From a bacterium (GTDB taxonomy: Bacteria > SAR324 > JACQKK01): DNA of 64,000 nucleotides. A model generated the notes under the pieces. It was not told where the DNA came from, made no database searches, and saw nothing but the letters and a program-made list of their open reading frames with translations. Of this stretch, positions 1 to 52,917 are shown in pieces. The stretch covers positions 670,305 through 734,304 of the forward strand of contig CBDBIG010000003.1 in assembly GCA_965205845.1 (NCBI GenBank), read 5' to 3'. The position numbers were made by a program, and so were the translations under genes. Each line of letters starts with the position of its first letter. The stretch's first letter is position 1.

Positions 1-250
1 TGTGAGGAGGGTCTGCATCCTTCAAGTTGTAGGCTTTAGAGAACCCGGTTTTGGCGGGACGCACCCATATTTAACAACTTATCCTGAGCTTGATTGTGAG
101 GAGGGTCTGCATCCTTTCAAGTTGTAGGCTTTAGAGAACCCGGTTTTGGCGGGACGCACCCATATTTAACAACTTATCCTGAGCTTGATTGTGAGGAGGG
201 TCTGCATTCCTCAAGTTGTAGGCTTTAGAGAACCCGGTTTTGGCGGGAGG
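1..250. repeat. Tandem direct repeat, ~94-bp unit x ~2.6 copies (tgtgaggagggtctgcatcc...atcctgagcttgat), at the 3' flank of the lpoA-like gene.
   Basis: Read directly: near-identical units begin at 1, 95 and 189; copy 3 diverges near 247. Confidence 0.85.
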
Positions 251-253
251 CAC

Positions 254-2802: not shown

Positions 2803-3768
2803 CTAAAAGATCACAATATCAGCGTGCTTTTTTAAGCGTTTAAGCAGGGCGTCAAGGCGCTGCTGATGTTGCTGTTGATATACCTGGGTGTAAAAACGCT
2901 GGTATTGGGGTTGGGTTAACTGCTTGCAGTTTGTCCTTTGACCATGGCGCACGGCAAATACCTTAATTAAGTGCCAGCCAAACTGGGTTTTCACAGCATC
3001 ACTCACCTGCCCAACCTCCATGTCAAAAGCCACTTTTTCAAAGGCATCGACCAACTCACCACGGGCAACAAACCCAAGCCTACCACGGTTTGCCGCGGCA
3101 CTTGGATCTTGCGAAAACGCGCTCGCCAGTGCCTCAAAATTCTCCCCTGAGAGCACGCGCTTGCGTAATTGAACCAGGCGTTCTTTAGCTTCTTTGGCGG
3201 AGATGTTGCGCAGCAAAATATGTCCTATATCCAATTCCTTTCCACCACCGCTTTGTTTTGTACAGGCATGGTCAACATCCGCTTGTGAGACCAAAATGCG
3301 ATAATCGACCTGCTGGGTAATGACTTGGCGTCTTAGAAGGTCACGATAAATAATGGTCTTAAGGTCGGTCTCACTCATTTCATTTTCTATTTGGGGGTTG
3401 CTGCGGTAGATGCGGTCGACTTGTTCATCCAATTTGGATTCCTCCACGCGCAGTTGCAGTTGTTCTGCATGGCTCTCCAGTAACAAATTTTCCACCACTT
3501 GTTGAAGCACTTGTTGGGATAAATTTGTAGGCAAAGGGTCTTTTTGTTGTTTATCTGCCTGGGCACGTTGGTGTTGTACTTTACGCAAGCGCAGCAGTTG
3601 GATAAATTCGCGTTGGGTGATTACCTTGCTGTTTACCACCACTTTTATCCCATCCACCTTCACCCGCCGTGCGCCTTGGGCGCTTGGCAAAAAAAGGCCT
3701 GCGCCCAGTGCCCCCAGCACAATCCACTGTACAAAACGCCATTTCAATGGCACCATAAAACGCCGCAT
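2803..3768 (-). CDS. SurA/PpiD-like periplasmic chaperone with a single parvulin-type peptidyl-prolyl isomerase domain.
   Basis: Signal/TM segment, SurA-N-like helical region and parvulin motif (GFVARGELVDAFEKVAF...GWHLIKV). The ORF extends to 3867; the likely start is Met at ~3768. Confidence 0.7.
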   Translation of the reverse strand: MRRFMVPLKWRFVQWIVLGALGAGLFLPSAQGARRVKVDGIKVVVNSKVITQREFIQLLRLRKVQHQRAQADKQQKDPLPTNLSQQVLQQVVENLLLESHAEQLQLRVEESKLDEQVDRIYRSNPQIENEMSETDLKTIIYRDLLRRQVITQQVDYRILVSQADVDHACTKQSGGGKELDIGHILLRNISAKEAKERLVQLRKRVLSGENFEALASAFSQDPSAAANRGRLGFVARGELVDAFEKVAFDMEVGQVSDAVKTQFGWHLIKVFAVRHGQRTNCKQLTQPQYQRFYTQVYQQQHQQRLDALLKRLKKHADIVIF

Positions 3769-6248: not shown

Positions 6249-6491
6249 AACCGGTGTCGACCTTAAAGGCCTTTGTTTCCTGGGGTTTTGCCATCAAACC
6301 GCTCGGGCAGGTTTCTGTTGTATGGCAGGTGGTAATAAAGGGGGCGGCTTGCTGAGGGAACGGCATGCTAAAGGGGTTAGAGGCTGGGGGCTTTGGGTGT
6401 GCAAGGTGTTGTGTTACTCGCCAAAACCTTGGGAACTACAAAGAAAAATGACCTAAGTAGAAATACCGGGCTCTACAAGAGTTATCTTAAC

Positions 6492-7014
6492 AGGATAGGT
6501 CTTATTTTCAACTCTCCTGCAAATGCTTTTTTGATGCGATTTTTTGCTATTTGAACATATTCGGTTTTTATTTCGACTCCTATAAACCTTCTATTATGTA
6601 TTAAGGAAGCTATTCCGCTTGAACCTGCTCCCATAATAAGGGTCTAACACAGCATTATTCTCATACCTACCAGATAATCTTTTTTGGCAATGCAATCCAT
6701 GCCCAAAATGCCATATGATTCTATTCCTTAATTTTAATCCTAAATCCTTAAAAACACCATACATTAGGATGTCCAAAGGTGTAATCTCCCCATTTTCAAC
6801 GTAATTTCCTACCTGCCAACAAATGCTACCTTTATAACTTAGCACCCTAACACATTCGGTTATTACATCTTTTTGCCATTTTACGTATTGATCAATATTT
6901 TTTTTCTTTTCGTATTCTTTGCCGACGTTGTAGGGAGGAGAAGTGACCACTAAATCTATAGATTTATCAGGTATATCAACAATTCTTTTTAAAATATCGG
7001 AGTTAAACAGTAGA
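6492..7014 (-). pseudogene. Frameshifted beta-class DNA methyltransferase (motif IV SPPY, probably an N4-cytosine/N6-adenine MTase) in an AT-rich islet. It has no canonical start codon and a +1 frameshift before motif I.
   Basis: Frame A gives ...LLFNSDILKRIVDIPDKSIDLVVTSPPYNVGKEYEKK...VLDPYYGS then stop. Shifting one base after 'tatggg' (near 6648-6650) gives GAGSSGIASLIHNRRFIGVEIKTEYVQIAKNRI (motif I plus following helix). An in-frame TAG lies upstream of the N-terminal region with no ATG/GTG/TTG before it. Confidence 0.75.
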
Positions 7015-7150
7015 TAATCCTCGATATTGAGTTGTTCAATTAATGCGGCTGCCTTATCTATGGTACTAACTCCTTGTAAGACAGATGCTTGTTGCGCTCG
7101 ATTCCTCTACAAATTTTTAGTAGGTTTTAGGGAGGGGTGGGGGGGAGGCA

Positions 7151-7345
7151 CCTTTCTCCTTATCTGGCAAAGGCAGACGCCCAACCGCTCAAGCCTACCT
7201 TTCTCCTTATCTGGCAAAGGCAGATGCCCAACTGCTCAAACCTACCTTTCTCCTTATCTGGCAGAGGCAGACGCCCAACCGCTCAAGCCTACCTTTCTCC
7301 TTTCTGGTGAAAGCAGACGCCCAACCGCTCAAACCTACCTTTTCT
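7151..7345. repeat. 48-bp tandem repeat x4 (cctttctccttatctggcaaaggcagacgcccaaccgctcaagcctac), 3' of ppsA.
   Basis: Read directly. Copies are slightly diverged (gatgcc/gacgcc, aaacc/aagcc). Confidence 0.85.
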
Positions 7346-9713
7346 CCGCTTGCAGCAGTTCTTCGCGTGCTTTGCTCAAAAGGTCCGGACGCACAACAAT
7401 GCCTGCGCTGTCTTTGGTTTTAGGCCAGTTGCAAAAAAAGCTTAAATTGGCTGGCGAGATGTGAGATAGCAGCAAAGGCTTGCCAATTGCTTTGGCAGAT
7501 TCAAGCGCTTGTTCCAGCAACCACAGCACCGCGGGGTGTTTTTCGTCTAAAAGGGGCTTGGCGAGCACGTTAGAGGCATCGATCCCCATAGCCAATTGGG
7601 CCACATCGGCCACATGTACAATCAAACCGTCGCAGGCCGTGCCAAACGCGTTCACGGCGAGCATTTGCGCAGGGGTGCGACACAGTAAATGGATTTCTAC
7701 TTGAGAGGCATCGAAGCCATTTTGTTTGAGCAATGCCTTGAGGGCATCCATCTCTTTCAGGGTGTGCACGGCGGGCAGCACCAGCTGAATGTTGTCCATG
7801 CCAATCTCGCCATAAGCCTTGGCCAACGCTTGTACTTCTAAGGCAAAGGCTTCTTCGTAGTCAAAGTCCTCGTAGCGCGCAAGGGAGCGCGCACCCATAA
7901 AGGGGTTGGCTTCGTCGCGTGCATTTTCACGCCCACCAATCAATTGACTTAAAGTATTGGCAGGGGCATCGGGCAACAAGACCCGCACGGGCTTGGGATA
8001 TACGGCCGCCGCAATGTGGGCAATCGATTGAGAAAGCTTGTCGACAAAGGCTTTTTTCTTATCATCCCAACCCTTGGTGGCCTCTGCAAACGCTTTTGCA
8101 TCTTGGCTGGGTGCTTGGATGCAAGCCATGGGATGCACTTTAACCACATCGCGAATTATCTCATCCATGCGCAACAAACCCACACCATCGTTGGGATAAC
8201 GCGCATCTGCAAAAACCGCATCGGGATTGCTGGCCTGCATCCATACCTTCACCTGTGGGCGTTCAAGTTCTGCCAAGCGAATGACGGCTTTTTTATAGGG
8301 TAAAATGCCCTCATACACAACACCACGACTCCCCTGGGCGCACGAAACGGTGACCTCCTGACCATTTTGAATGGCCTTGGTGGCCCCTGTGGCACCCACA
8401 AGGCAAGGCAAACCCAATTCGCGCGAAATAATGGCCGCATGACTGGTACGCCCGCCCGTTTCGGTTACGATGGCAGAAGCAATTTTCATGATAGGGACCC
8501 AATCGGGGTCGGTGCTTTCTGTGACAAGCACCATCCCTTTTTGAAACTCTTTAATGCTCTCTGGCGTTAAAATCACCGAAGCCAAACCGCTGCCAATATT
8601 TTCTCCCACCGCCATCCCGTCGATGAGTACGCTCGACGTTTTTTCAAGGGTCATTTGTTCAATCACCCCTTGTTCACGGCGCGACACCACGGTTTCAGGG
8701 CGTGCTTGCACGATAAACAAATCTCCACTCTCTCCATCTTTGGCCCATTCCATGTCCATGGGTTTGAAGCCGCCCGCCTCTTGCGAGTAATGATCTTCAA
8801 TCAAGGTAGCCCAGTTGGCAAGTTGCACCACCTCGTCTTCACCCAGGCAAAAGCGATCGCTTTCTTCCCCAGGCACGGGGGTGTTCTCAATGCCCCCTCC
8901 ATCGGTTTTGTACACCATGCGTTGCTGTTTGGCGCCCAGCAAAGCGTGGATAATCGATTTTTTGCCTTGCTTTAAGGTGGGCTTGTGCACATACCATTCA
9001 TCGGGGTTAATCGCCCCTTGCACCACATTTTCTCCCAGCCCATAACCGCCAGTAATGTAAATGGCATCATGAAAACCGCTTTCGGTATCGATCGAAAACA
9101 TCACCCCAGCAGAAGATTTATCGCTGCGCACCATTTTTTGGACGGCGATCGAAAGCGCGACCGAGAAGTGGTCAAAGTGGCGTTCTTGGCGATAGGCAAT
9201 GGCTCTGTCGGTAAACAAAGAGGCAAAGCAAGCACGGCAGCTTTCCAGCAAATGCTCATAGCCGCTCACATTCAAGTAGGTATCTTGCTGACCCGCAAAC
9301 GATGCATCGGGCAGGTCTTCAGCCGTGGCCGAAGAACGCACCGCAACGTCAACCAAATCGACCTTGTAGCGTTCGCACAAAACGTTATAGGCATCCACAA
9401 TGGCCTTCACAATTTCATCAGGCATCATGGTGCTCGTTATCAGGTCGCGCACCTGCTTGCCACGGCTCGACAAATTGGTAAGGTCATTCACATCCAAATC
9501 CGAAAGAATTTGCCCAATGCGTGACCTCACCCCCATGCTTTCGACAAAGTGGTTGTATGCATAGGCAGAGACTGCAAAACCATCGGGCACGCGGACCCCT
9601 TTACCGGTTAAATTGGCAAACATTTCGCCCAGAGAAGCGTTTTTGCCCCCCACCATGGGAACATCTTGAATTCCTAGGTCAGAGAACCAATAGATAAATT
9701 TTTCTTCAGCCAC
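7335..9713 (-). CDS. ppsA: Phosphoenolpyruvate synthase (pyruvate, water dikinase).
   Basis: 792 aa with N-terminal MAEEKF..VGGKNASLGEM, a central phosphohistidine region (GGRTSHAAIISRELGLPCLVG) and a C-terminal PEP-utilising domain. Confidence 0.95.
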   Translation of the reverse strand: MAEEKFIYWFSDLGIQDVPMVGGKNASLGEMFANLTGKGVRVPDGFAVSAYAYNHFVESMGVRSRIGQILSDLDVNDLTNLSSRGKQVRDLITSTMMPDEIVKAIVDAYNVLCERYKVDLVDVAVRSSATAEDLPDASFAGQQDTYLNVSGYEHLLESCRACFASLFTDRAIAYRQERHFDHFSVALSIAVQKMVRSDKSSAGVMFSIDTESGFHDAIYITGGYGLGENVVQGAINPDEWYVHKPTLKQGKKSIIHALLGAKQQRMVYKTDGGGIENTPVPGEESDRFCLGEDEVVQLANWATLIEDHYSQEAGGFKPMDMEWAKDGESGDLFIVQARPETVVSRREQGVIEQMTLEKTSSVLIDGMAVGENIGSGLASVILTPESIKEFQKGMVLVTESTDPDWVPIMKIASAIVTETGGRTSHAAIISRELGLPCLVGATGATKAIQNGQEVTVSCAQGSRGVVYEGILPYKKAVIRLAELERPQVKVWMQASNPDAVFADARYPNDGVGLLRMDEIIRDVVKVHPMACIQAPSQDAKAFAEATKGWDDKKKAFVDKLSQSIAHIAAAVYPKPVRVLLPDAPANTLSQLIGGRENARDEANPFMGARSLARYEDFDYEEAFALEVQALAKAYGEIGMDNIQLVLPAVHTLKEMDALKALLKQNGFDASQVEIHLLCRTPAQMLAVNAFGTACDGLIVHVADVAQLAMGIDASNVLAKPLLDEKHPAVLWLLEQALESAKAIGKPLLLSHISPANLSFFCNWPKTKDSAGIVVRPDLLSKAREELLQAEKR

Positions 9714-14060: not shown

Positions 14061-14951
14061 ATGATGTTGAAAGTGATTTTTTTTGGTTTAGGTAAAATGG
14101 GGTTTCCAATGGCAGAAAACCTGCTTAAAGCAGGCCATGTGGTATACGGGCATGACATTGTAGCGCAAGCGTGCAAGGCTTTTGCAGCGTGCGGAGGAAA
14201 AGTGATTGACGATCTCGACGCTGTATTGGGCGAGGCTGAGGTGGTGGTGAGCATGCTACCCGCAGGTGAGCATGTTAAGGCACTTTACACCGGTGGCCTC
14301 TTTAAAAAGGTGAAGCAGGGGTGTTCCATCATCGACTGCTCCACCATTGAGGTGAGCGTTGCCCGTGAGGTTGCTGCCTTGGCTGCCAAGCAAGGGCTAT
14401 CGTTGCTCGATGCCCCCGTTTCGGGCGGTGTGGGTGGCGCTACGGCGGGGAGCCTAACCTTTATGGTGGGGGGGGATGAAGCGGCGTTTAAAGCGCTTGA
14501 ACCCCTGTTTAAAGCGATGGGGAAGAACATTATTTTGGCAGGCCCAAGCGGGGCGGGGCAAGCTGCCAAAATGTGCAATAACCTCATGTTGGGGATCCAA
14601 ATGCTTGCGGTGTGCGAAGGGTTTAATTTGGCCGATGCCGTGGGTTTGGATCGCGCGAAACTTTTTGCCGTTGCTTCGACCGCTTCAGGGCAGTGTTGGT
14701 CCCTCACCAATTACTGTCCCATACCTGGCCCTGTGCCCACGGCCCCGTCTAATCGCGACTATGCCGCGGGGTTTACGGCAGCCTTGATGCTCAAAGATAT
14801 GAAACTGGGGGATGTGGCTGCGGATGAAACCCAAACGGCGATCCCCCTTGCCCGGATGGCACTGGCACAATACGCAAAATTCTGCGAAAGTGGCGGCGCT
14901 GAAAAGGATTTTTCTGGAGTAATTACCATGCTGCGCAACGCACATTCGTAA
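14061..14951 (+). CDS. mmsB: 3-hydroxyisobutyrate dehydrogenase.
   Basis: N-terminal GxGxxG Rossmann (FFGLGKMGFPMAENL) and 6PGDH/HIBADH family blocks. Sits upstream of a HIBCH-like gene. Confidence 0.8.
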   Translation: MMLKVIFFGLGKMGFPMAENLLKAGHVVYGHDIVAQACKAFAACGGKVIDDLDAVLGEAEVVVSMLPAGEHVKALYTGGLFKKVKQGCSIIDCSTIEVSVAREVAALAAKQGLSLLDAPVSGGVGGATAGSLTFMVGGDEAAFKALEPLFKAMGKNIILAGPSGAGQAAKMCNNLMLGIQMLAVCEGFNLADAVGLDRAKLFAVASTASGQCWSLTNYCPIPGPVPTAPSNRDYAAGFTAALMLKDMKLGDVAADETQTAIPLARMALAQYAKFCESGGAEKDFSGVITMLRNAHS

Positions 14952-14968: not shown

Positions 14969-16060
14969 ATGAAAACCACGCAAGCCGACCTATTAATTAC
15001 GCAACGCGGTTGTCTGGGGGTTATTGTGCTCAATAAGCCCGCCACCTTGAATGCCTTGAATATGAACATGGTGCAGGGCATTACCAAACAATTGCAGGCA
15101 TGGCTGCATGATAATAGCGTTGCGCGGGTGGTGCTTACTGGCGCGGGGGAGCGGGCCTTTTGTGCGGGCGGGGACATTCGTCATTTGTATGAAACGGGCG
15201 TGGGTAACCCCGCCGCAGGTCCCAGCCTTGAAGCGCAGCGTTTTTTTTCCCGTGAATACCAATTAAACTACCGCATTCATCGCTATCCTAAGCCGATTAT
15301 TGCCCTGATTAACGGCATTACCATGGGGGGCGGTGCGGGCCTTGCCATGCATGCGCACCTGCGTATTGCGGGGTCTTTGTCCAGGTTTGCCATGCCCGAA
15401 AACGCGTTGGGGTTTTTCCCGGATGTGGGAGCCACACGCTTTCTCAATCAATGTGGGGGGGGGATTGGCCTCTGGCTAGGATTGACGGGTAGTGCCGTAA
15501 AAGGGAGTGCGATGGTAAGTGCAGGCCTCGCGCAAATGGCTGTGCCCAATGAAGCCTTTGAAGATGTGGTGCAGGTGCTGCAGCGGCCTTTGCCTGAGCC
15601 TTTGGATGTGCTTGGATTGCAGCACTTGTTAACACCCTATGCCTTGCCTGAGACGACCCTCGAACACCAGGCGCAAGTGGATGCCGTCTTTGCCAGCCCA
15701 AGGGATTTGGCGGCCGTGTTTGCAGCGTTGAAACGCTTCGACAACGGCCCGTCTGCGTCATGGGCTGGGCAGATTCTAAAAGCGTTGGCCAAGGCTTCTC
15801 CGACCTCACTTGCCTTGTGCTTTCAACAACTAAACCAAGGCAAGGAGTTGGATGCAAAAGCAGCCCTTGTGCGTGAGTTTCGCATGGCGATGCATGCGCT
15901 ACGGCGGCCCGATTTTTATCAGGGGGTGAAGCGTGCCATCCTCGAGCGGAGCTACAAGCCCCAATGGCAGCCCGCCACCTTGGATGCGGTTACACCCGCT
16001 GTCGTCGCTGCGTTTTTTGAACCCCCTGCATGTGGTGATTTAACATTGCCTTCATCTTAA
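14969..16060 (+). CDS. 3-hydroxyisobutyryl-CoA hydrolase (crotonase superfamily).
   Basis: LNKPATLNALN...VLTGAGERAFCAGGDI crotonase fold with a long C-terminal domain typical of HIBCH. Confidence 0.75.
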   Translation: MKTTQADLLITQRGCLGVIVLNKPATLNALNMNMVQGITKQLQAWLHDNSVARVVLTGAGERAFCAGGDIRHLYETGVGNPAAGPSLEAQRFFSREYQLNYRIHRYPKPIIALINGITMGGGAGLAMHAHLRIAGSLSRFAMPENALGFFPDVGATRFLNQCGGGIGLWLGLTGSAVKGSAMVSAGLAQMAVPNEAFEDVVQVLQRPLPEPLDVLGLQHLLTPYALPETTLEHQAQVDAVFASPRDLAAVFAALKRFDNGPSASWAGQILKALAKASPTSLALCFQQLNQGKELDAKAALVREFRMAMHALRRPDFYQGVKRAILERSYKPQWQPATLDAVTPAVVAAFFEPPACGDLTLPSS

Positions 16061-16071
16061 ATCTCAACCCT

Positions 16072-16563
16072 TTGAGGACTGTTTTTAACATGGCGCAAAA
16101 AACGCAGAAAGTATGCTACGAGGCCCGTTATTTTCAGGATTTTTCTGTGGGGGATCTGTTTCAAACGGGTACCCATCGGGTGACCAAAGAGGAAATTATA
16201 GCCTTTGCACGCCAGTACGACCCCCAGCCTTACCATTTAGACGAAAGTGCAGCGGAAAAAAGCATGTTCAAAGGCCTGATTGCCAGCGGGTTTATGACCC
16301 TTGGGATTGGTTTTGCCCTTTCTTACCGAACCGGTGTGCTCGACCACATGATGGGGGGGCGGGGCCTTGATGAATTGCGCTGGTTGGTGCCTGTGCGCCC
16401 GGGGGATGTTTTAATGGCAAAAGCACGTGTCGTTTCCACGCGCCCTTCTTCGCGTGATGTGTCTCGGGGGACGGTGGTGTTTGATTACAGCATCATCAAT
16501 CAGCGCAATGAGGCCGTGTTGACGATGAAAGCACACCAAATGATTGCAACGCGTCCCCAATGA
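16072..16563 (+). CDS. MaoC-like (R)-specific enoyl-CoA hydratase / hot-dog dehydratase.
   Basis: 163 aa; MaoC dehydratase motif region (FKGLIASGFMTLGIGFAL). Confidence 0.7.
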   Translation: MRTVFNMAQKTQKVCYEARYFQDFSVGDLFQTGTHRVTKEEIIAFARQYDPQPYHLDESAAEKSMFKGLIASGFMTLGIGFALSYRTGVLDHMMGGRGLDELRWLVPVRPGDVLMAKARVVSTRPSSRDVSRGTVVFDYSIINQRNEAVLTMKAHQMIATRPQ

Positions 16564-16800
16564 TGCTGCCTTTCTGCAAGGGGTTGTTCAAGGCGATTGT
16601 CTTTGAGAATTTCGTTCACATCCAAAAAGGGGGGGTCGTGTGCTGCTGCCTTTCTGCAAGGGGTTGTTCAAGGCGATTGTCTTTGAGAATTTCGTTCGCA
16701 TCCAAAAAGGAGGGGTCGTGTGCTGCTGCCTTTCTGCAAGGGGTTGTTCAAGGCGATTGTCTTTGAGAATTTCGTTCGCATCCAAAAAGGAGGGACCTTT
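16561..16800. repeat. 80-bp tandem repeat x3, between the MaoC-like gene and the methyltransferase.
   Basis: The unit gctgcctttctgcaaggggttgttcaaggcgattgtctttgagaatttcgttc(a/g)catccaaaaag... recurs at 16563, 16643 and 16723. Confidence 0.85.
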
Positions 16801-16905
16801 GCCTGAATGCTTTGACGGACACCCTACAGGATTATGGGGTTTTTTGGAAACAATCAAGAAAGTAGGGCAAAAAGGAGGCGCAAACCTCCTTTATAATATT
16901 GAAGC

Positions 16906-17724
16906 GTGATACGAGAGACAAGATGCGCACCGCTGACAAATCGAATTATTTCGGCAGATTGCATTGACGCCACAGCCAAAATGCCAGCAGATCTGGTGGA
17001 TTTAACCGTTTTTTCCCCGCCCTACGATACCATTCGGGACTATCAAAAGGGTTGGCAGATCGATTTTCCCGTACTGGGAAAAAATGTGTATCGCGTTACC
17101 AAAACAGGGGGCCTTTGCGCGGTTGTTATCAACGATGGCACGCGGCGCTTTGCCAAGTCGCTTACCAGTTTTAGGTTGGTGGTCGATTGGTGTGATAAAG
17201 CGGGTTGGCGTCTGTTTGAAACGTGTATTTATCACCGTGATGGCAACCCAGGGGCGTGGTGGAAAAACCGCTTTAGGGTCGATCATGAGTATATCTTCTT
17301 GTTTTTAAAAGGCGAACGTCCCAAAACCTTTCACAAAGAACCCCTCATGATTCCTAGCAAGCATGCAGGCAGGCGCTACTCGGGGACAGATCGGCTGACC
17401 AACGGTCAATTCAAAAAAATTGTTCCAAAAACGGTCAACCCATTTAAATGCAGAGGGACGGTTTGGCGCTATGCCACGAGCAATACAGAAGGTAACAAAC
17501 TAAAACGTCAACATCCCGCCACCTACCCCGATCAACTGGCAGAAGATTTAATTTTGTGTTTTTCAAATGCGGGTGAAGTGGTCCTTGACCCCATGTGTGG
17601 GAGTGGGACCACGTGTGTGATGGCCTTAAAAAATGAGCGTCAATTTATTGGCCTTGAAATCAATGAAGCATACTGTAAGGTGGCCCAAATGCGCCTTCAA
17701 CAAGAATGTGCACAGCCGATCTAA
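16906..17724 (+). CDS. Solitary beta-class DNA methyltransferase (SPPY motif IV then DPMCGSGTT motif I; N4C/N6A type).
   Basis: VDLTVFSPPY...HPATYPDQLAEDLI...VVLDPMCGSGTTCVMALKNERQFIGLEINEAYCKVA. No adjacent nuclease gene; embedded among acyl-CoA catabolic genes. Confidence 0.85.
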   Translation: MIRETRCAPLTNRIISADCIDATAKMPADLVDLTVFSPPYDTIRDYQKGWQIDFPVLGKNVYRVTKTGGLCAVVINDGTRRFAKSLTSFRLVVDWCDKAGWRLFETCIYHRDGNPGAWWKNRFRVDHEYIFLFLKGERPKTFHKEPLMIPSKHAGRRYSGTDRLTNGQFKKIVPKTVNPFKCRGTVWRYATSNTEGNKLKRQHPATYPDQLAEDLILCFSNAGEVVLDPMCGSGTTCVMALKNERQFIGLEINEAYCKVAQMRLQQECAQPI

Positions 17725-18004
17725 AGCCGCGGCATCTTACTAAACTTGCTTTCAAAAAGGCGGGTGCATGGGGTGTGGGTGCGCAAAATGGATTGCGCGC
17801 ATCTCCCCCCCTCCCCATCTCACCTTCGCACCTTTTGATGCGCTGCGCTGCGAAGCCAAAAGCGTCGTTTGATACGCGGCGGGGCGGATCATGTTGATGA
17901 AGGCCTGATCTGAAAAGATCACAAAAGCCTTGCATTTATCGCTTCATTTGGGTAGTAAGGCGTAGGTCTCCTATTCCGGATGCACGGTTTTCTAATATCA
18001 ACAA

Positions 18005-19171
18005 TTGCTAAGGAATCCCATGATGAACACAACCCAAAACGTTGAAAATATGCTCAGTGAGGAAGAGCGCCTGTTTGTGCATACGGCCAGAAATTTTGCC
18101 GATGGGCATCTGCGCCCCCATGCAGACGCGTGGGATACGAGCGGAGAATATGACAAAAGCACCCTCGGCGCACTGGGTGATCTGGGTTTTTTGGGGGTGT
18201 TGGTGGGCGAAGAATGGGGTGGAATTGGTGCTGAGCAGGTACCCTATGCGCTTTCGCTCATGGAAATAGCAGCAGGCGATGCCTCGACTTCGGCGATAGT
18301 GGGCGTGCATAACACCGTGTGTAGCGTGTTTGAACGTTATGGAAATGCTGAGCAAAAACACCGCTTGCTAAAACCCCTTGCCAGTGGTGAGCATATTGGT
18401 GCGTTTGCCCTCACCGAACCCCAGGCGGGTTCAGATGCCTCTAATTTGCTCACCAAAGCGGAGAAAAATGGGAGCGGATGGCGCTTAAACGGCTCTAAGC
18501 AGTTTATTACCAATGCGGGTTTTGCTGAAACGGTGGTGGTCTTTGCCGTAACCGACCCTCAAGCGGGAAAAAAGGGAATTTCGGCTTTTGCAGTCCGAAC
18601 GGGGCAGGCGGGCTTTAAGGCCATGCCGGCGGAGAAAAAGCTGGGCATTCGTGCATCTGATACCCGTGCCTTGGTGTTTGAAGATGTTAAAATTGCAGAA
18701 CATAATTTAATTGGGCAATTGGGCGAGGGCTATAAAATTGCCCTGTCTACCTTAGAAGCAGGGCGCATAACCATTGCCGCCCAAGCGACGGGCATTGCCA
18801 GTGAGGCTTTGAATCGTGCATTGGCGTACGCACGTGTGCGCAAAGCCTTTGGCAAACCCATTTACGAACTCCAGGCTGTGCAGTTTCGCCTGGCAGACTG
18901 TATGGCCAAACTTGAAATGATTCGCCAAGTGACCCTACATGCTGCGCGCTTAAAAGATGCAGGCCAGCCATGTATCAGGGAGGCTTGTATCGCCAAATTG
19001 CAGGCGAGTGAACTGGCTGAAACGATTGTATCGGACTGCCTGCAAACCTACGGGGGGTATGGTTTTTTGAAAGAATACGGACTTGAACGCATGTATCGCG
19101 ATGTGCGGATATGTAAAATTTATGAGGGCACCTCGGACATTCAAAAATTGATCATTGCACGCAACATGTAA
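18005..19171 (+). CDS. Acyl-CoA dehydrogenase. From context, probably isobutyryl-/short-branched-chain acyl-CoA dehydrogenase.
   Basis: ACAD N/M/C domains (GAFALTEPQAGSDAS, YEGTSDIQKLIIAR). Confidence 0.85.
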   Translation: MLRNPMMNTTQNVENMLSEEERLFVHTARNFADGHLRPHADAWDTSGEYDKSTLGALGDLGFLGVLVGEEWGGIGAEQVPYALSLMEIAAGDASTSAIVGVHNTVCSVFERYGNAEQKHRLLKPLASGEHIGAFALTEPQAGSDASNLLTKAEKNGSGWRLNGSKQFITNAGFAETVVVFAVTDPQAGKKGISAFAVRTGQAGFKAMPAEKKLGIRASDTRALVFEDVKIAEHNLIGQLGEGYKIALSTLEAGRITIAAQATGIASEALNRALAYARVRKAFGKPIYELQAVQFRLADCMAKLEMIRQVTLHAARLKDAGQPCIREACIAKLQASELAETIVSDCLQTYGGYGFLKEYGLERMYRDVRICKIYEGTSDIQKLIIARNM

Positions 19172-25889: not shown

Positions 25890-27197
25890 ATGCTTTTAAA
25901 AACTCTGCGACGTAGCCTTGTGCTTGCCCTCGTCATCTTGCCCATCACGGGCAGCTTGGCCTTGGCGCAGCTCACGTTTCCGTCTTTTTCGTATCGTACA
26001 GGTCCCTATGCACCCAATGGAATTCCAGTTGCGGATGGTTACAGCGACTACTTTACCTTGATAAACGCCCGTGACGGTGGAATTAATGGTCAAAAAGCGG
26101 ATGTTGTTGAGTGTGAAACGGGGTACAATACCCAGCGTGGGGTCGAGTGCTACGAAAAAGTGAAAGGGAAGAATCCCTTGATAATTCACCCTTTGTCAAC
26201 GGGTATAACATACCAACTCATTCCAAAAGCGACGGCGGATAATATTCCCATCCACTCTATGGGCTATGGGCGCACTTCTGCCGCCAACGGCAAGGTGTTC
26301 AAATATGTATTCAGCTACCCAGGCACCTACTGGGATGCAGCCTCGATCATCGTCAAGCACATTGGCAAAGAAGAAGGCGGAATGAGGAAACTCAAGGGTA
26401 AGAAAATTACGCTGATTTATCATAACTCTGCCTATGGCAAAGAACCCATACGCACCTTGCAAGTGTTGAGCAAAAAACATGGTTTCAAGCTGGATTTATT
26501 GCCCGTTGATCACCCTGGTCAAGAGCAAAGGTCTACATGGCTTAAAATACGCCGTTCGCGCCCTCGCTATTTGGTAATGTGGGGTTGGGGTGTCATGAAC
26601 CAGGTTGCCATCAAGGAAGCCGCTTCGATTCGCTTCCCCATGAAGCGTTTTATTGGCGTTTGGTGGTCTGGGTCTGAAAATGATGTGATCCCAGCGGGTA
26701 AGGGTGCCCATGGCTATAAAGCGATCACCTTCCACGATGTGGGTAAGAACTACCCCGTCTACGACGACCTCAAAAAGCATGTTTATGACAAGGGCAAAGC
26801 AGCAGGCGGTGGTGATAACACGGGTACTGTGCTCTATAATCGTGGGATGCTGGCAGCCGTGTGGGCGGTTGAAGCGGCGCGCAATGCCATGAAAATTCAC
26901 AAAACCAAAAAAATCACCCCAGCGATGATGCGTGATGGGATGGAAACATTGCACGTAGGTGAGAAGCGCCTAAAGGAATTGGGGATGGCTGGATTTACCG
27001 TAACCGTGAAAAACAGTTGCGCTAGTCATGGTGGGCCTGGCCTTGGGGCGATCCAGCAATGGAATGCAAACACCAAGCAATGGAAGCTCATTACCGGGTA
27101 TGTTGGTGCTGACCGTAGCGTTGTCGACAAGCTAATCGCAGAAGATTCTGCGGCGTATGCAAAAGAAAACAAAATCAAGGTACGCAGTTGTTCTTAA
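25890..27197 (+). CDS. ABC transporter periplasmic substrate-binding protein (LivK-like family, ~435-aa class often paired with aryl-/acyl-CoA ligases), copy 1.
   Basis: Signal peptide and type-1 PBP fold; part of the LivGHM...F operon. Confidence 0.85.
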   Translation: MLLKTLRRSLVLALVILPITGSLALAQLTFPSFSYRTGPYAPNGIPVADGYSDYFTLINARDGGINGQKADVVECETGYNTQRGVECYEKVKGKNPLIIHPLSTGITYQLIPKATADNIPIHSMGYGRTSAANGKVFKYVFSYPGTYWDAASIIVKHIGKEEGGMRKLKGKKITLIYHNSAYGKEPIRTLQVLSKKHGFKLDLLPVDHPGQEQRSTWLKIRRSRPRYLVMWGWGVMNQVAIKEAASIRFPMKRFIGVWWSGSENDVIPAGKGAHGYKAITFHDVGKNYPVYDDLKKHVYDKGKAAGGGDNTGTVLYNRGMLAAVWAVEAARNAMKIHKTKKITPAMMRDGMETLHVGEKRLKELGMAGFTVTVKNSCASHGGPGLGAIQQWNANTKQWKLITGYVGADRSVVDKLIAEDSAAYAKENKIKVRSCS

Positions 27198-27393: not shown

Positions 27394-28701
27394 ATGCCCT
27401 TAAAGACTCTTCAGCGTGGCCTTGTGCTTGCCCTCGTCATCTTGCCCATCACGGGCAGCTTGGCCTTGGCGCAGCTCGTGTTTCCGTCTTTCGCGTATCG
27501 TACAGGCCCTTATGCGCCTAATGGAATTCCAGCTGCGGATGGTTTTCTCGACTACTTCGCCCTGATAAATGCCCGTGACGGTGGGATTAATGGCCAAAAA
27601 GCCGAAGTCATCAGCTGTGAAACGGGCTACAATTCCCAGCGTGGAGTCGAGTGCTACGAAAAAGTCAAAGCAAAGAATCCCTTGGTAATTCACCCTTTGT
27701 CAACGGGTCTTACTTACCAACTCATTCCAAAAGCGACGGCGGATAAGATTCCCATCCATTCTATGGGTTATGGGCGTACTTCTGCCGCCAACGGCAAGGT
27801 ATTCAAATATGTATTCAGCTTCCCGGGTACCTACTGGGATGCAGCCTCGATCATCGTCAAGTATATTGGCAGAGAAGAAGGCGGGATGAAGAAACTCAAG
27901 GGCAAGAAAATTTCGCTAATTTATCATAACTCTGCCTATGGCAAAGAGCCCATACGCACCTTACAAGTGCTGAGCAAAAAGCATGGCTTCAAGCTGGATT
28001 TATTGCCCGTTGATCACCCTGGTCAAGAGCAGAGGTCTACATGGCTTAAGATACGCCGTTCGAACCCTCGCTATTTGGTAATATGGGGATGGGGTGTTAT
28101 GAATCAGGTAGCCCTCAGGGAAGCCGCTTCGATTCGCTTCCCCATGAAGCGTTTTATTGGCGTTTGGTGGTCTGGATCTGAAAATGATGTGATCCCAGCG
28201 GGTAAAGGCGCCCATGGCTATAAAGCGATTACCTTCCACGGTGTGGGTAAGAACTACCCTGTCTACGACGATCTCGAAAAGTATGTTTATGACAAGGGCA
28301 AAGCAGCAGGCGATGGTGACAACATGGGTACTGTGCTCTATAATCGTGGAATGCTGTCGGCTATGTGGTCTGTTGAGGGGGCACGCAGCGCCATGAAAAT
28401 TCACAAAACTAAAAAAATCACCCCAGCGATGATGCGTGATGGGATGGAAGCATTGCATGTAGGTGAGAAGCGCCTAAAGGAATTGGGGATGGCTGGATTT
28501 ACCGTAACCGTGAAAAACAGTTGCGCTAGACATGGTGGGCCTGGTCTTGGGGCGATCCAGCAATGGAATGCAAACACCAAGCAATGGAAGCTCATTACCG
28601 AGTACATCGGTGCTGACCGTGTTGTTGTCGACAAACTGGTCGCAGAAGATTCTGCGGCTTATGCAAAAGAAAACAAAATCGAGGTACGCAGTTGTTCTTA
28701 A
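27394..28701 (+). CDS. ABC transporter substrate-binding protein, tandem paralog (copy 2, ~88% identical to copy 1).
   Basis: Near-colinear translation with copy 1 (MPLKTLQRGLVLALVILPITGSLALAQL...). Confidence 0.85.
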   Translation: MPLKTLQRGLVLALVILPITGSLALAQLVFPSFAYRTGPYAPNGIPAADGFLDYFALINARDGGINGQKAEVISCETGYNSQRGVECYEKVKAKNPLVIHPLSTGLTYQLIPKATADKIPIHSMGYGRTSAANGKVFKYVFSFPGTYWDAASIIVKYIGREEGGMKKLKGKKISLIYHNSAYGKEPIRTLQVLSKKHGFKLDLLPVDHPGQEQRSTWLKIRRSNPRYLVIWGWGVMNQVALREAASIRFPMKRFIGVWWSGSENDVIPAGKGAHGYKAITFHGVGKNYPVYDDLEKYVYDKGKAAGDGDNMGTVLYNRGMLSAMWSVEGARSAMKIHKTKKITPAMMRDGMEALHVGEKRLKELGMAGFTVTVKNSCARHGGPGLGAIQQWNANTKQWKLITEYIGADRVVVDKLVAEDSAAYAKENKIEVRSCS

Positions 28702-29829: not shown

Positions 29830-31071
29830 ATGGCTTTTTTTGATTCAAAAGAAACGCGCTCGATGGACCAAAGAACATCGGAGCAATTACAGCAGCTTAA
29901 AGAAATTATTACCCACGCAAAGAAAAACTCTCTCCAGCAAGCAAAACGTTTGCGTGGCTTCCATCCCAGCACATTGAAGGGCGTGGAGGATTTGCAGTCC
30001 TTCCCGGTGTTGTACAAGGCCGATCTTGCCAAAGTCCAAGCAGAAAATCCCCCTTTTGGCGATTTAAACGCCGCAGCTGCTGAAGAATTGGGGCGTATTT
30101 ATCGTTCTCCTAACGGAGTGGTGGACGTAGAGGGTCCAAATGCGGGTGACTGGTGGCGTACTGCCCGTGCTTTGTACGCGGCGGGATTGCGCAAAGGCGA
30201 TTTGGTGCACAACAGTTTTTCTTACCACATTACCCCTGCAGGGATGATGTTGGACAGTGGAGCACGGGCATTAGGGTGCACGGTATTTCCGGCGGGTCCG
30301 AGCCATACGAGCGTACAGGCCGAAATGTTGAGTTATTTGCGTGCAAGTGCCTTTGTTGGTGTGCCTGAAACTTTGAATATAGTGCTTACAAAAGCGGATG
30401 AGTTGGGGTATGATGTGAGCTCTCTTACCAGAGCCCTTGTGTCAGGTGGCCCTTTGTTTCCGTCTGTGCGCCGGATGTTGGACGCCCGTGTCATTCAGGT
30501 GCGCGAGGCCTATGCTACGGCTGATGTGGGGCTGATATCTTATGAGAGCGGCGTCGAGGATGGCATGATGGTCGATGAGGATGTGCTGGTTGAAATTGTG
30601 CGTCCGGGCACGGGTGATCTTGTGCCGGTAGGAGAGGTGGGTGAGGTTGTGGTAACCACGCTTACCTCGTGGCAAAAGCCGATGATCCGTTTTGCTACTG
30701 GGGACCTTTCTGCCGTGCTACCGGGGCAAAGTGCTTGTGGTCGCACCAATATCCGCCTTAAAGGCTGGCTTGGACGCGCCGACCAAACCACCAAAGTGCG
30801 CGGTATGTTTGTCTATCCAGCGCATGTAGATGTCGTGCTGAAGAGATTGAAATTGACTGGCCGTGCTCGCCTCGAAATCGATCGCAAAGGAGAACGTGAT
30901 ACGATGGTGCTCAAGGTGGAACATACCCAGCCTGATTCGAGTTTGGCACAAGCACTGGCTGATTCGCTGCAAGCGGTGACGGGCTTGCGTACCGTCGCCC
31001 AAGTTGTGACACAAGGCAGTTTAGCCAACGATGGCAAAATTATTGACGACTTACGCGATTATGAGAATTAA
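29830..31071 (+). CDS. Phenylacetate-CoA ligase (PaaK)/F390-synthetase-family adenylate-forming enzyme, copy 1.
   Basis: 413 aa; PaaK-family architecture (N-terminal ANL domain, YATADVG, C-terminal ACT-like lid region). Confidence 0.75.
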   Translation: MAFFDSKETRSMDQRTSEQLQQLKEIITHAKKNSLQQAKRLRGFHPSTLKGVEDLQSFPVLYKADLAKVQAENPPFGDLNAAAAEELGRIYRSPNGVVDVEGPNAGDWWRTARALYAAGLRKGDLVHNSFSYHITPAGMMLDSGARALGCTVFPAGPSHTSVQAEMLSYLRASAFVGVPETLNIVLTKADELGYDVSSLTRALVSGGPLFPSVRRMLDARVIQVREAYATADVGLISYESGVEDGMMVDEDVLVEIVRPGTGDLVPVGEVGEVVVTTLTSWQKPMIRFATGDLSAVLPGQSACGRTNIRLKGWLGRADQTTKVRGMFVYPAHVDVVLKRLKLTGRARLEIDRKGERDTMVLKVEHTQPDSSLAQALADSLQAVTGLRTVAQVVTQGSLANDGKIIDDLRDYEN

Positions 31072-31277: not shown

Positions 31278-31343
31278 TACCGCAAGCGCTGGTTGTGAGA
31301 GTTGACAAATTTTAAAACCTTATTTGTGAAAGGAGTCCCTACT

Positions 31344-39944: not shown

Positions 39945-40480
39945 TGCCCTTGTGCTCAAAACTGCGGGTCATCAGAGCGTACCATGTTAAGGCACCGCCA
40001 ACTTGTGCTCAAAGCCGCGGGTCATCAGAGCGTACCATGTTAAGGCACCGCCAACTTGTGCTCAAAACTGCGGGTCATCAGAGCGTACCATGTTAAGGCA
40101 CCGCCAACTTGTGCTCAAAACTGCGGGTCATCAGAGCGTACCATGTTAAGGCACCGCCAACTTGTGCTCAAAACTGCGGGTCATCAGAGCGTACCATGTT
40201 AAGGCACCGCCAACTTGTGCTCAAAACTGCGGGTCATCAGAGTGTACCATGTTAAGGCACCGCCAACTTGTGCTCAAAACTGCGGGTCATCAGAGCGTAC
40301 CATGTTAAGGCACCGCCAACTTGTGCTCAAAGCCGCGGGTCATCAGAGTGTACCATGTTAAGGCACCGCCAACTTGTGCTCAAAACTGCGGGTCATCAGA
40401 GTGTACCATGTTAAGGCACCGCCAACTTGTGCTCAAAACTGCGGGTCATCAGAGCGTACCATGTTAAGGCACCGCAAAAA
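39945..40480. repeat. 53-bp tandem repeat x ~10, immediately after the rodZ stop codon; the unit is derived from the rodZ 3' end.
   Basis: 'accatgttaagg' recurs at 39980, 40033, 40086 ... 40457 (period 53). The first unit overlaps the last rodZ codons (cgtaccatgttaaggcagctcgaaaactaa). Variants are aaaactgc/aaagccgc and agagcgt/agagtgt. Confidence 0.9.
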
Positions 40481-52756: not shown

Positions 52757-52917
52757 CCTTAGATTGACCTTTTTAGAATAAATGCCTTTACAAAGTACTT
52801 GGCTATGCATAAATACCAAAGCCTTTGTGAGCCTTTTAAAAAAAGCATGAGCAAGCCCTTTGACCCCCGTTAAAAAAACCATCACTCCCCCTCAAATTGT
52901 TAAAAACTCAGAGAAAA
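52757..52917. repeat. Left copy of a ~160-bp direct repeat (rnr leader / 5' coding sequence) bracketing the MTase cassette.
   Basis: ctaccccccatgcccttagcccttagattgacctttttagaataaatgcctttacaaagtacttggctatgcataaataccaaagcctttgtgagcc... is ~93% identical to 54719-54900. Confidence 0.9.

What the first reader, a model, noticed from the sequence alone, without database searches (positions are those of the whole stretch)
16561..17724. Orphan MTase embedded in the valine/acyl-CoA catabolic operon, preceded by an 80-bp x3 repeat
A complete SPPY...DPMCGSGTT methyltransferase lies between the MaoC hydratase and acyl-CoA dehydrogenase genes, co-directional, with no nuclease partner. An 80-bp x3 tandem repeat lies immediately upstream. 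It is either an insertion scar or a regulatory MTase coupled to catabolic gene expression.
Basis: partly seen in the sequence, partly recalled or inferred. Interest (0 to 1): 0.5.

Follow-up and report, generated by a model that had tools for sequence, protein, structure and literature searches.

The report
Solitary DNA methyltransferase left from restriction system
A DNA methyltransferase sitting between two fatty-acid/valine breakdown gene clusters is the surviving half of an old restriction-modification pair, kept intact without its nuclease, and the 80-bp repeat beside it is one of many such repeats in this bacterial lineage and has no specific link to the gene.

Summary
An 80-bp tandem array of 2.9 copies (16561/16564-16794) lies upstream of an intact beta-class PF01555 methyltransferase (16906-17724; SPPY...DPMCGSGTT), between MaoC and an acyl-CoA dehydrogenase.

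- **Age.** The nearest related genome (L047, ACAD 77% identical) carries the sister MTase at the same position. dN/dS is about 0.09, like the flanking metabolic genes. This is an old, maintained solitary MTase, not a fresh insertion scar.
- **Specificity.** Site-avoidance statistics point to AGCT as the ancestral target, and SPPY suggests m4C. No AGCT lies in the flanking intergenic regions, which argues against local control of the catabolic genes.
- **The repeat.** High-identity arrays of 43-230 bp occur at 0.9 per 10 kb in the window and 6.8 per 10 kb in L047, against about 0 in 1.9 Mb of other DNA. They mostly begin at stop codons.

Verdict: a new member of a known kind (an orphan MTase from a degraded R-M system). 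Interest is modest. The array phenomenon and the uncharacterised nuclease family are the more unusual by-products.

The parts
16090..16563 (+). MaoC-like (R)-hydratase gene, upstream neighbour. It is absent from the nearest relative L047.
   Evidence: PF01575 E=8.4e-17. The exact protein is on record as a singleton cluster. There is no MaoC hit in L047.
16561..16794 (.). 80-bp tandem array of 2.9 copies. Copy 1 starts on the MaoC stop codon, and copies 2 and 3 are identical over their shared length. It is one instance of a lineage-wide class of intergenic arrays.
   Evidence: TRF. Register and identities of 96% and 91% to copy 1. Unique in the window. Array density 0.94/10 kb in the window and 6.8/10 kb in L047, against 0-0.06 in 1.9 Mb of other loci.
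16795..16905 (+). Unique spacer between the array and the MTase start. It contains two weak terminator-like hairpins (16821-16840; 16871-16892, AAAAGGAGG/CCUCCUUU followed by AUAAUAUU) and a TATAAT at 16892-16897.
   Evidence: Scan. RNA fold -28.1 kcal/mol, z=-1.4, not significant. Sequence. No conservation with the L047 upstream region.
16906..17724 (+). Solitary beta-class amino-DNA methyltransferase, 272 aa from GTG 16906. Motif IV SPPY is at nt 17014-17025 and motif I DPMCGSGTT at nt 17587-17613. It is predicted to be N4-cytosine-specific, with AGCT as the likely target.
   Evidence: PF01555 at 120 bits. It retains all ~100 invariant family columns. Model pLDDT 83.6, with strand 13-16 and helix 19-25 at pLDDT 95-97. 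The best fold match is the SPPY N4-cytosine MTase N4CMT, E=3.8e-20. dN/dS is 0.09 against L047. AGCT inference.
17725..18004 (+). Spacer between the MTase stop and ACAD. In relatives with an intact system, the nuclease gene occupies this position. Here there is no nuclease remnant.
   Evidence: tblastn with two partner proteins gives E>=1. Profile HMM of 40 partners on six frames gives E>1, while positive controls score 7.6e-112 and 6.9e-67. RNA fold z=-2.5.
18005..19171 (+). Acyl-CoA dehydrogenase, first gene of the downstream ACAD-thioesterase-ECH-acyl-CoA ligase-ABC unit. The database start is probably 18020.
   Evidence: Pfam. Exact protein P0123 is 383 aa. Orthologue contexts.

Best explanation
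The gene at 16906-17724 encodes an intact, functional, solitary ('orphan') beta-class DNA amino-methyltransferase. It is the surviving half of a horizontally acquired Type II restriction-modification pair.

Shown:
- It belongs to a very tightly conserved MTase subfamily.
- In that subfamily the gene is normally followed directly by a ~218-aa protein with a PD-(D/E)xK Type II restriction-endonuclease fold.
- That nuclease is absent here without trace.
- The sister MTase occupies the same position in the only close relative available.
- The protein has evolved under purifying selection as strong as that on the neighbouring metabolic genes.

Inferred:
- The R-M pair landed at the variable boundary between the mmsB-HIBCH unit and the ACAD unit in an ancestor of the two genomes. 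Alternatively, an already solitary gene was acquired.
- The nuclease was lost, and the MTase kept methylating the chromosome.
- From the SPPY motif and the best structural match, it most likely makes N4-methylcytosine.
- From site-avoidance statistics, the target is most likely AGCT.

The benefit I think most likely is protection of the genome against AGCT-cutting nucleases that re-enter with related R-M systems or mobile elements (a 'vaccinating' methylase). Control of the neighbouring catabolic genes is less likely.

The 80-bp x3 array is not part of this story. It is one of many recent local tandem duplications that this lineage accumulates just downstream of stop codons.
For: MTase identity and integrity.

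Family context: among metagenomic loci with an MTase >=62% identical and >=700 bp of downstream flank, 26 have a full partner ORF, 9 a partial one and 14 none. None of 22 more distant loci and none of 71 viral loci have it.

No partner here.

Synteny: L047 has mmsB-HIBCH-[array]-MTase-[arrays]-ACAD-4HBT-ECH-ligase.

Phylogeny: window+L047 are sisters at 95/100 and 84/100 with more taxa. Together with a third solitary copy, L208, they form a clade at 78/100, nested among partner-bearing MTases.

Selection: MTase dN 0.19, dN/dS 0.09, against 0.09-0.19 for ACAD, ECH, TE and HIBCH. By contrast, another SPPY MTase in the window (6482-6950) is frameshifted and truncated, so unneeded MTases do decay here.

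Target: AGCT has the lowest observed/expected (O/E) contrast of all 136 tetramers between partner-bearing loci (0.35; 188 observed, 537 expected) and controls (0.74). Per-locus medians are 0.32 vs 0.58 (p=0.0076) and 0.74 (p=9e-6). AGCC is not depleted.

SPPY as the m4C signature: PMC10406627, PMC6712171, PMC5867850.

Array is unrelated.
Against: Only one close relative (L047, a 10-kb low-coverage contig) supports the synteny, so 'conserved in the lineage' rests on n=2.

dS is saturated (>1), so dN/dS values are rough.

The window is 64 kb of a larger genome, so a cognate nuclease elsewhere cannot be excluded. AGCT is strongly depleted in the window (119 observed vs 236 expected, z=-9.6). After a loss as old as the saturated dS implies, this would be expected to have decayed unless restriction pressure continues.

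The AGCT and m4C assignments are indirect. Avoidance could be confounded by the taxonomy of the partner-bearing loci, and SPPY is a rule of thumb.

The start codon is uncertain. The ATG used in L047 is lost here, GTG 16906 has no good Shine-Dalgarno sequence, and the public gene call starts at Met26 (P0001). That start would remove a structured strand and helix.

The protective function is inferred, not shown.
Confidence: 0.62

Rival explanations
1. Not an orphan. The MTase still works with a cognate AGCT-cutting nuclease encoded elsewhere in the genome, as a split R-M system, and its role is ordinary self-protection.
For: AGCT shows the strongest depletion z-score of all tetramers in the window (O/E 0.51, z=-9.6), whereas MTase-less relatives L048/L051 have 1.23. 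The six most depleted tetramers are all palindromes, so restriction pressure in this genome is real. An unrelated R-M pair lies 36 kb away.
Against: In this family the nuclease is adjacent whenever it is detected, in 35 of 35 cases. There is no family member in the 64-kb window. None of the 120 best partner-family proteins comes from an 877,621-bp contig, which is the source contig's length. The SfiI-like nuclease in the window is unrelated in sequence to the partner family (hhalign probability 0.2%) and has its own MTase. The sister copies in L047 and L208 are also solitary.
Confidence: 0.15
2. A domesticated epigenetic regulator. The solitary MTase is kept because methylation of its sites controls gene expression. 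This could be global, or, specific to the adjacent valine/acyl-CoA catabolic genes.
For: Long retention at one locus under purifying selection is the pattern reported for functional orphan MTases (PMC6471742 and the work it cites). m4C orphans with regulatory or physiological roles are known (PMC5867850). The gene is co-directional with the catabolic genes.
Against: If AGCT is the target, there is no site between 15950 and 18639, so none lies in either flanking intergenic region. AGCT is most depleted in intergenic DNA (6 observed vs 28.7 expected, against 114 vs 205 in coding DNA). From my own knowledge, this is the opposite of the intergenic enrichment seen for regulatory sites such as CcrM's GANTC. 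The neighbours differ between the two genomes (MaoC only in the window), and in L047 the MTase is separated from both neighbours by 0.6-1 kb of arrays. The third clade member, L208, sits among unrelated genes.
Confidence: 0.15
3. A recent insertion, or the scar of a mobile element, with the 80-bp array as its footprint.
For: Foreign affinity of the MTase. Slightly lower GC3 (0.48 against 0.51-0.59 for flanking genes). A repeat next to it.
Against: The sister gene is at the same site in a genome diverged to dS>1. There are no flanking direct or inverted repeats beyond chance and no integrase or transposase. Only an 11-mer is shared between the array and the downstream flank (p~0.09). Arrays of the same kind sit at many unrelated junctions.
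Confidence: 0.03
4. A decaying gene that no longer makes active enzyme, having lost its start codon.
For: The ATG start of L047 is replaced in the window. Ribosome-binding signals are weak. The public annotation starts at Met26.
Against: The frame is open from GTG 16906. All invariant residues are kept, including near-invariant D18/C19 upstream of Met26. dN/dS is 0.09. A truly decayed MTase in the same window looks quite different.
Confidence: 0.05

Closest known systems
Solitary (orphan) MTases derived from degraded Type II R-M systems (Seshasayee et al. 2012, as summarised in PMC6471742), for example the conserved beta-class m4C orphan HVO_0794 (CTAG) of Halobacteria (PMC5867850)
   Same: A beta-class PF01555 enzyme with SPPY motif IV and no cognate nuclease at the locus. 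It is retained across diverged genomes with conservation like ordinary genes.
   Different: A different subfamily and a different inferred target (AGCT, not CTAG). Conservation is shown in only two syntenic genomes plus one non-syntenic clade member. Methylation is not demonstrated.
PvuII R-M system (M.PvuII, beta-class N4-cytosine MTase acting on CAGCTG; R.PvuII, blunt-cutting PD-(D/E)xK nuclease)
   Same: The architecture of the ancestral pair: a small beta-class SPPY/F-type MTase plus a small EcoRV/PvuII-branch nuclease. 1boo and PvuII both appear among the structural matches. The inferred target AGCT is the core of the PvuII site (own knowledge).
   Different: Only remote sequence similarity (1boo E=5e-6 by sequence). 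There is no C-protein. The avoidance signal is for the tetramer, and CAGCTG is not further depleted. In the window the nuclease is gone.
N4CMT of the rotifer Adineta vaga (PDB 8s9n/8s9o/8s9m; PMC10406627)
   Same: The best structural match (Foldseek E=3.8e-20, 24-26% identity). It shares SPPY motif IV and is itself a horizontally acquired bacterial-type solitary N4-cytosine MTase.
   Different: It is eukaryotic and fused to a chromodomain, with a different target-recognition region. The match shows only the shared fold class.
CcrM / Dam-type cell-cycle orphan MTases
   Same: A solitary amino-MTase in an alphaproteobacterium-like host. CcrM is also beta-class PF01555.
   Different: It is not an orthologue: NF050803 scores 67.6 bits against a cut-off of 830. 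It has SPPY, not DPPY. It lacks CcrM's C-terminal domain. Its inferred sites are depleted, not enriched, in intergenic DNA.
AluI-type (AGCT) R-M systems
   Same: The inferred recognition sequence. AluI is also a blunt cutter, which fits the EcoRV-like fold branch of the partner (own knowledge).
   Different: M.AluI is a C5-cytosine MTase (own knowledge), whereas this one is an amino-MTase. The partner nuclease family has no Pfam, NCBIfam or PDB sequence match.

Membership tests
Beta-class N4/N6 amino-DNA methyltransferases (Pfam PF01555) | Significant match to PF01555 above the gathering score | tested here: met
   120.3 bits vs 26.7, residues 31-261 on profile positions 1-220 of 221
Beta-class N4/N6 amino-DNA methyltransferases (Pfam PF01555) | Circular permutation typical of class beta: catalytic motif IV ((S/D)PPY) lies N-terminal to the SAM-binding motif I (FxGxG-like) | tested here: met
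   SPPY at residues 37-40 and DPMCGSGTT at 228-236. Motif order as described in PMC10406627.
Beta-class N4/N6 amino-DNA methyltransferases (Pfam PF01555) | Fold matches solved beta-class MTases | tested here: met
   Model pLDDT 83.6. Foldseek hits: N4CMT 3.8e-20, CcrM, M.BceJIV, TTHA0409, RsrI, MboIIA, PvuII.
N4-cytosine-specific MTases | Ser, not Asp, in motif IV (SPPY/F) | tested here: met
   SPPY is invariant across the family. Rule as stated in PMC6712171, PMC5867850 and PMC10406627.
N4-cytosine-specific MTases | Product is N4-methylcytosine | not testable with these tools
   Needs a methylome or an enzyme assay.
Complete Type II restriction-modification system | A cognate restriction endonuclease gene next to the MTase | tested here: not met
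   No partner-family sequence beside the gene or anywhere in the window. The neighbours are MaoC and ACAD.
Complete Type II restriction-modification system | Close homologues of the MTase are paired with a nuclease (ancestral state) | tested here: met
   35 of 49 subfamily loci have a full or partial partner. The partner has a Type II REase fold.
Solitary (orphan) MTase retained after R-M decay | No cognate nuclease anywhere in the genome | not testable with these tools
   Only 64 kb are held, and the source contig could not be retrieved. Indirect evidence: none of the 120 best partner-family proteins comes from an 877,621-bp contig.
Solitary (orphan) MTase retained after R-M decay | Orthologue at the syntenic position in related genomes | tested here: met
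   L047. Sister relationship at 84-95% bootstrap. Only one such relative is available.
Solitary (orphan) MTase retained after R-M decay | Purifying selection comparable to host genes | tested here: met
   dN/dS 0.092 against 0.086-0.185 for four flanking genes, with dS saturated.
CcrM family (cell-cycle regulated MTase) | Equivalog-level match to CcrM (NF050803) | tested here: not met
   67.6 bits against a cut-off of 830, and only the C-terminal 70 residues align.
Regulatory MTase acting on the adjacent catabolic genes | Target sites in the promoter or intergenic regions of the genes it would control | tested here: not met
   Conditional on AGCT being the target: no AGCT between 15950 and 18639, and intergenic O/E is 0.21.
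Mobile-element insertion scar | Flanking target-site duplication or terminal inverted repeats, a recombinase gene, and absence from relatives | tested here: not met
   Only chance-level short repeats. No recombinase among the neighbours. The gene is present in L047.

The most novel reading that the evidence does not exclude
The 80-bp array is one product of a lineage-specific, mechanistically distinct process that creates tandem duplications anchored at stop codons, not of ordinary slippage filtered by selection. Candidates include termination-coupled or transcription-replication-conflict-driven template switching. This process has filled up to a quarter of intergenic-rich sequence in a deep, poorly sampled alphaproteobacterial lineage. 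A bolder but weaker extension is that the retained solitary AGCT methylase and the strong purge of AGCT from intergenic DNA are linked to the biology of this lineage.
Probability: 0.2. Interest if true: 0.6.

Novelty: new member of a known kind. Interest (0 to 1): 0.3.

Why it matters
On its own this is a textbook outcome of R-M decay: the nuclease is lost and the methylase stays. Its value is as a clean, datable example. The same solitary gene is held at one locus across genomes diverged to saturation at synonymous sites, next to a decayed MTase pseudogene and an intact R-M pair in the same 64 kb.

Three by-products may be of more use:
(1) A widespread MTase subfamily (at least 584 metagenomic loci) is tied here to a partner family of 330 'hypothetical proteins' with no Pfam model. 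Structure prediction identifies that family as a Type II restriction endonuclease, and avoidance statistics give AGCT as a testable specificity.
(2) The public gene call for the MTase probably starts 25 codons too late.
(3) The host lineage carries an unusual load of young tandem arrays that start at stop codons. This could matter for assembly, annotation and the study of duplication mechanisms.

Tried and rejected
- The exact look-up of the source contig failed, and source proteins are singleton clusters without names. The organism is therefore known only as a deep alphaproteobacterium-like lineage, from ACAD hits.
- The genome-contig scan with MaoC gave only distant (<=51%), non-syntenic loci, which were useless for synteny. 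ACAD was the better anchor.
- The viral scan with the single protein found nothing. With the alignment it found 75 viral loci, but all are distant (44-59%) and lack the partner.
- The idea that the ORF at 16640-16909, whose stop overlaps the MTase GTG, is a coupled upstream gene was rejected. Two thirds of it is repeat sequence, it has no family match, and it has no counterpart in L047.
- The idea that degenerate copies of the 80-bp unit flank the MTase was rejected. Only CAAAAAGGAGG is shared.
- The idea that the SfiI-like nuclease at 53800 is the missing partner was rejected. It has no sequence relation to the partner family and has its own adjacent MTase, which is 22% identical to ours.
- RGCY (CviJI-like) specificity was rejected in favour of AGCT, because AGCC/GGCT is not depleted.
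- Several 'no-partner' subfamily loci have other unannotated ORFs beside the MTase. The 14 of 49 'no nuclease' count is therefore an upper bound for true orphans.
- The terminator/promoter scans and RNA folds of the two spacers gave nothing beyond chance.
- A literature search for stop-codon-anchored intergenic arrays found nothing relevant.
Full report
**1. What is there**

TRF reports a single array at 16564-16794: period 80, 2.9 copies, 98% matches. Read in register, it begins at 16561, so the TGA stop of the upstream MaoC gene corresponds to TGC in copies 2 and 3. The unit occurs nowhere else in the window, with 0 expected by chance.

A unique 111-bp spacer follows, and then an ORF at 16906(GTG)-17724. 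This ORF matches PF01555 (N6_N4_Mtase) at 120 bits. It has SPPY (motif IV) before DPMCGSGTT (motif I), which is the class-beta order. The flanking genes are:
- upstream: mmsB 14061-14951, a 3-hydroxyisobutyryl-CoA-hydrolase-type ECH_2 gene 14969-16060, and MaoC 16090-16563;
- downstream: ACAD 18005-19171, a hotdog thioesterase, an enoyl-CoA hydratase, an acyl-CoA ligase and a branched-chain amino-acid ABC transporter.

All are co-directional.

**2. The MTase is intact, and its public gene call is probably too short**

An alignment of 42 family members has about 100 invariant columns, and the window protein keeps all of them. The database entry for this exact gene (P0001, 247 aa) starts at Met26. 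Residues 11-25 (TNRIISADCIDATAK) align with the conserved N-terminus of the family, including near-invariant D18 and C19. In the AlphaFold model (pLDDT 83.6) they form a strand (13-16) and a helix (19-25) at pLDDT 95-97.

The only in-frame start that includes them is GTG 16906. The ATG used by the orthologue in L047 (MKTNRII) has been lost in the window. Translation signals are weak, so expression is probably low.

By sequence, the nearest solved proteins are distant: TTHA0409 at 1.7e-15, then N4CMT, MboIIA, RsrI and CcrM. By structure, the best match is the SPPY N4-cytosine MTase N4CMT (E=3.8e-20), ahead of the N6-adenine enzymes. SPPY is treated in the literature as the N4-cytosine form of motif IV (PMC10406627, PMC6712171, PMC5867850). 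I therefore predict m4C, and this is unproven.

**3. Host and synteny**

The source genome could not be retrieved. Its proteins are nameless singleton clusters from an 877,621-bp contig. ACAD homologues place the host among deep, poorly sampled Alphaproteobacteria-like MAGs. The nearest is 77% identical (L047, a 10.3-kb ENA contig), and a group of marine MAGs follows at 62%.

L047 has the same order: mmsB, HIBCH, MTase, ACAD, thioesterase, ECH, ligase. It has no MaoC, and tandem arrays fill the spacers on both sides of the MTase.

In the 62% group, mmsB-HIBCH and ACAD are separated by oppositely oriented ECH and mmsA genes and a LysR regulator, with no MTase. The MTase therefore sits at a variable boundary between two transcription units, not inside one conserved operon. 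Its position is nevertheless shared by the two closest genomes.

**4. Origin: the M half of a Type II R-M pair**

The MTase subfamily is large, with at least 584 loci in JGI metagenomes. It is unusually conserved, at 62-74% identity across contigs whose named members are Chloroflexi and Armatimonadetes.

In loci with an MTase >=62% identical and enough flank, a ~218-aa ORF follows immediately:
- 26 loci have a full partner ORF;
- 9 have a partial one;
- 14 have none.

More distant members (0 of 22) and viral members (0 of 71) lack it.

Neither tblastn nor a profile HMM finds any trace of it in the window, beside the L047 MTase, or beside a third solitary copy, L208. Positive controls score 1e-112 and 7e-67.

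**5. Age and selection**

In NJ trees the window and L047 MTases are sisters, at 95/100 and at 84/100 with more taxa. With L208 they form a clade of three solitary genes at 78/100, nested among partner-bearing MTases.

Between the window and L047 the MTase has dN 0.19 and dN/dS 0.09. The values for ACAD, ECH, thioesterase and HIBCH are 0.09, 0.12, 0.15 and 0.19. dS is saturated, so these ratios are approximate. GC3 is only slightly below that of the neighbours.

No target-site duplication, inverted repeat or recombinase flanks the gene. A second SPPY MTase in the same window (6482-6950, minus strand) is truncated and frameshifted, so MTases that are not needed do decay here. Together these results exclude a recent insertion scar and a pseudogene.

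**6. Likely target and what it implies**

I compared observed/expected (O/E) counts under a maximal-order Markov model in loci that carry the nuclease and in control loci.
- AGCT has the lowest contrast of all 136 tetramers: O/E 0.35 (188 observed, 537 expected) against 0.74.
- 16 of 17 intact-pair loci of >=5 kb have O/E <=0.51, and all 6 degraded-pair loci have <=0.48.
- Per-locus medians are 0.32, against 0.58 for same-subfamily loci without the nuclease (p=0.0076) and 0.74 for distant-MTase loci (p=9e-6).
- AGCC/GGCT is not depleted, so the signal is AGCT and not RGCY.

This is indirect evidence and could be confounded by taxonomy. It does fit a small nuclease of the blunt-cutting fold branch, and AGCT-specific methylation is known (PMC8919816).

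In the window itself AGCT is strongly depleted: 119 observed against 236 expected, z=-9.6, the strongest of all tetramers. Depletion is greatest in intergenic DNA (6 against 28.7). The MTase-less relatives L048/L051 have O/E 1.23.

Two consequences follow. First, no AGCT lies between 15950 and 18639, so methylation cannot act on the spacers around the MTase or on the ACAD upstream region. This argues against the proposed coupling to catabolic expression. Second, persistent depletion suggests continuing exposure to AGCT-cutting nucleases. That fits a protective ('vaccinating') role for a solitary methylase. It also keeps alive the rival that a cognate nuclease is encoded elsewhere in the genome. 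Among the 120 best partner-family proteins, none comes from a contig of the source contig's length. This is weak evidence against that rival.

**7. The 80-bp array**

The window has six high-identity arrays with periods of 43-95 bp. L047 has seven, covering 23% of the contig. Densities are:
- 0.94 per 10 kb in the window;
- 6.8 per 10 kb in L047;
- 0-0.06 per 10 kb in 1.9 Mb of other fetched DNA, including the 62% relatives.

The units are unrelated to each other. In L047 they include the ends of the adjacent genes, so they are local duplications and not a dispersed element.

Nine of 13 arrays begin within -70 to +10 nt of a stop codon and run downstream. Random placement gives a mean of 0.76. 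Under a fairer null, which allows any position selection would tolerate, 7 of 10 arrays do so against 2.7 expected (P=0.0035). The window was chosen post hoc and the sample is small.

The array next to the MTase follows this pattern: it starts on the MaoC stop. Copies 2 and 3 are identical over their shared length, so it is young, much younger than the MTase. It is therefore not an insertion footprint and has no specific link to the MTase.

**8. Verdict**

The gene is best described as a solitary, probably m4C and probably AGCT-specific, beta-class DNA methyltransferase. It descended from a Type II R-M pair whose nuclease was lost. It has been retained under purifying selection at an inter-operon boundary in a deep alphaproteobacterial lineage.

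This is a new member of a well-known kind (PMC6471742 and the work it cites). The interpretation as a regulator of the catabolic genes is unsupported. The main open points are whether a cognate nuclease survives elsewhere in the genome, what the methylated motif is, and whether the stop-codon-anchored arrays reflect a special mechanism.

Noticed in passing
window 1-258, 1297-1628, 7150-7347, 16561-16794, 39949-40475, 57138-57224; L047 524-944, 980-1401, 2383-2656, 3931-4692, 5971-6108, 6674-6800, 9766-9992: This is a lineage-specific load of young tandem arrays (periods 43-230 bp, 91-100% identity) with unrelated units. Most begin at or just inside a stop codon and run downstream. Density is 0.94/10 kb (window) and 6.8/10 kb (L047), against 0-0.06 in 1.9 Mb of other DNA. 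Under a tolerated-position null, 7 of 10 are at stops against 2.7 expected (P=0.0035, window chosen post hoc).
   Followed up: partly
window 52860-53840 (+) and 53800-54459 (+): This is a second, apparently complete Type II R-M pair. It consists of a 326-aa PF01555 MTase (only 22% identical to the one studied) overlapping a 219-aa SfiI-family nuclease (PF11487 E=1.4e-44; SfiI 2ezv E=1e-17). Beside it lies a 1260-aa ORF with no Pfam match (48510-52292, minus strand).
   Followed up: partly
window 6482-6950 (-): This is a decayed third PF01555 MTase. The ORF at 6594-6950 starts at 'TSPPY' without the N-terminal segment, and the motif I part continues in another frame (6482-6634). It lies between hemC and a PEP-utilising enzyme, next to the 47-bp array.
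   Followed up: partly
window 1297-1628, inside ORF 254-2752 (-): This is an 84-bp x4.0 array at 100% identity (28 codons per unit), lying inside an 832-aa ORF. Only residues ~490-640 of that ORF match a periplasmic binding protein domain. The long ORF may be two genes fused in frame by the array, with the array covering the real gene's 5' end.
   Followed up: no
whole window; L047: The six most depleted tetramers in the window are all palindromes: CCGG 0.48, AGCT 0.51, ACGT 0.66, GATC 0.72, GGCC 0.73, CTAG 0.73. In L047, CCGG is at 0.12 and GATC at 0.37. This suggests heavy and varied restriction pressure in the lineage.
   Followed up: partly
window 16906-16980 (public protein P0001): The database gene call for the MTase starts at Met26 (247 aa). 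Family conservation and the structure model indicate that the real product starts upstream, at GTG 16906.
   Followed up: yes
window 16090-16563: The MaoC-like gene is absent from the nearest relative L047. Its best homologues are only <=51% identical, in non-syntenic loci of unrelated phyla. The HIBCH-to-MTase junction has therefore gained or lost a gene since the two genomes split.
   Followed up: partly
L001 2766-7477; L002 3202-7444: In the closest partner-bearing relatives, the R-M pair sits directly downstream of metK (SAM synthetase) and ahcY (SAH hydrolase). This places a SAM-consuming enzyme next to the SAM-cycle genes. Both loci are from related genomes, so this may be a single event.
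   Followed up: no
L208 3677-4495: This is a third solitary member of the same MTase clade (74% identical). It lies between a TPP enzyme and a glutamate-synthase-domain gene in a 62% GC contig that has no arrays and no AGCT depletion (O/E 1.16).
   Followed up: partly
window 25890-27197 / 27394-28701 and 29830-31071 / 31302-32585: These are two pairs of adjacent genes with the same Pfam family, near-identical lengths and the same domain coordinates (periplasmic binding proteins; AMP-binding enzymes). They look like tandem gene duplications.
   Followed up: no
L047 about 3300-3360 (MTase codons between 'WC' and 'AGWRLFE'): The L047 MTase carries an in-frame insertion of about 15 residues (…QGEGLAHTKPSQPQPAGA…) that is absent from all other family members. 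It could be real or an artefact of a 2x-coverage contig.
   Followed up: no
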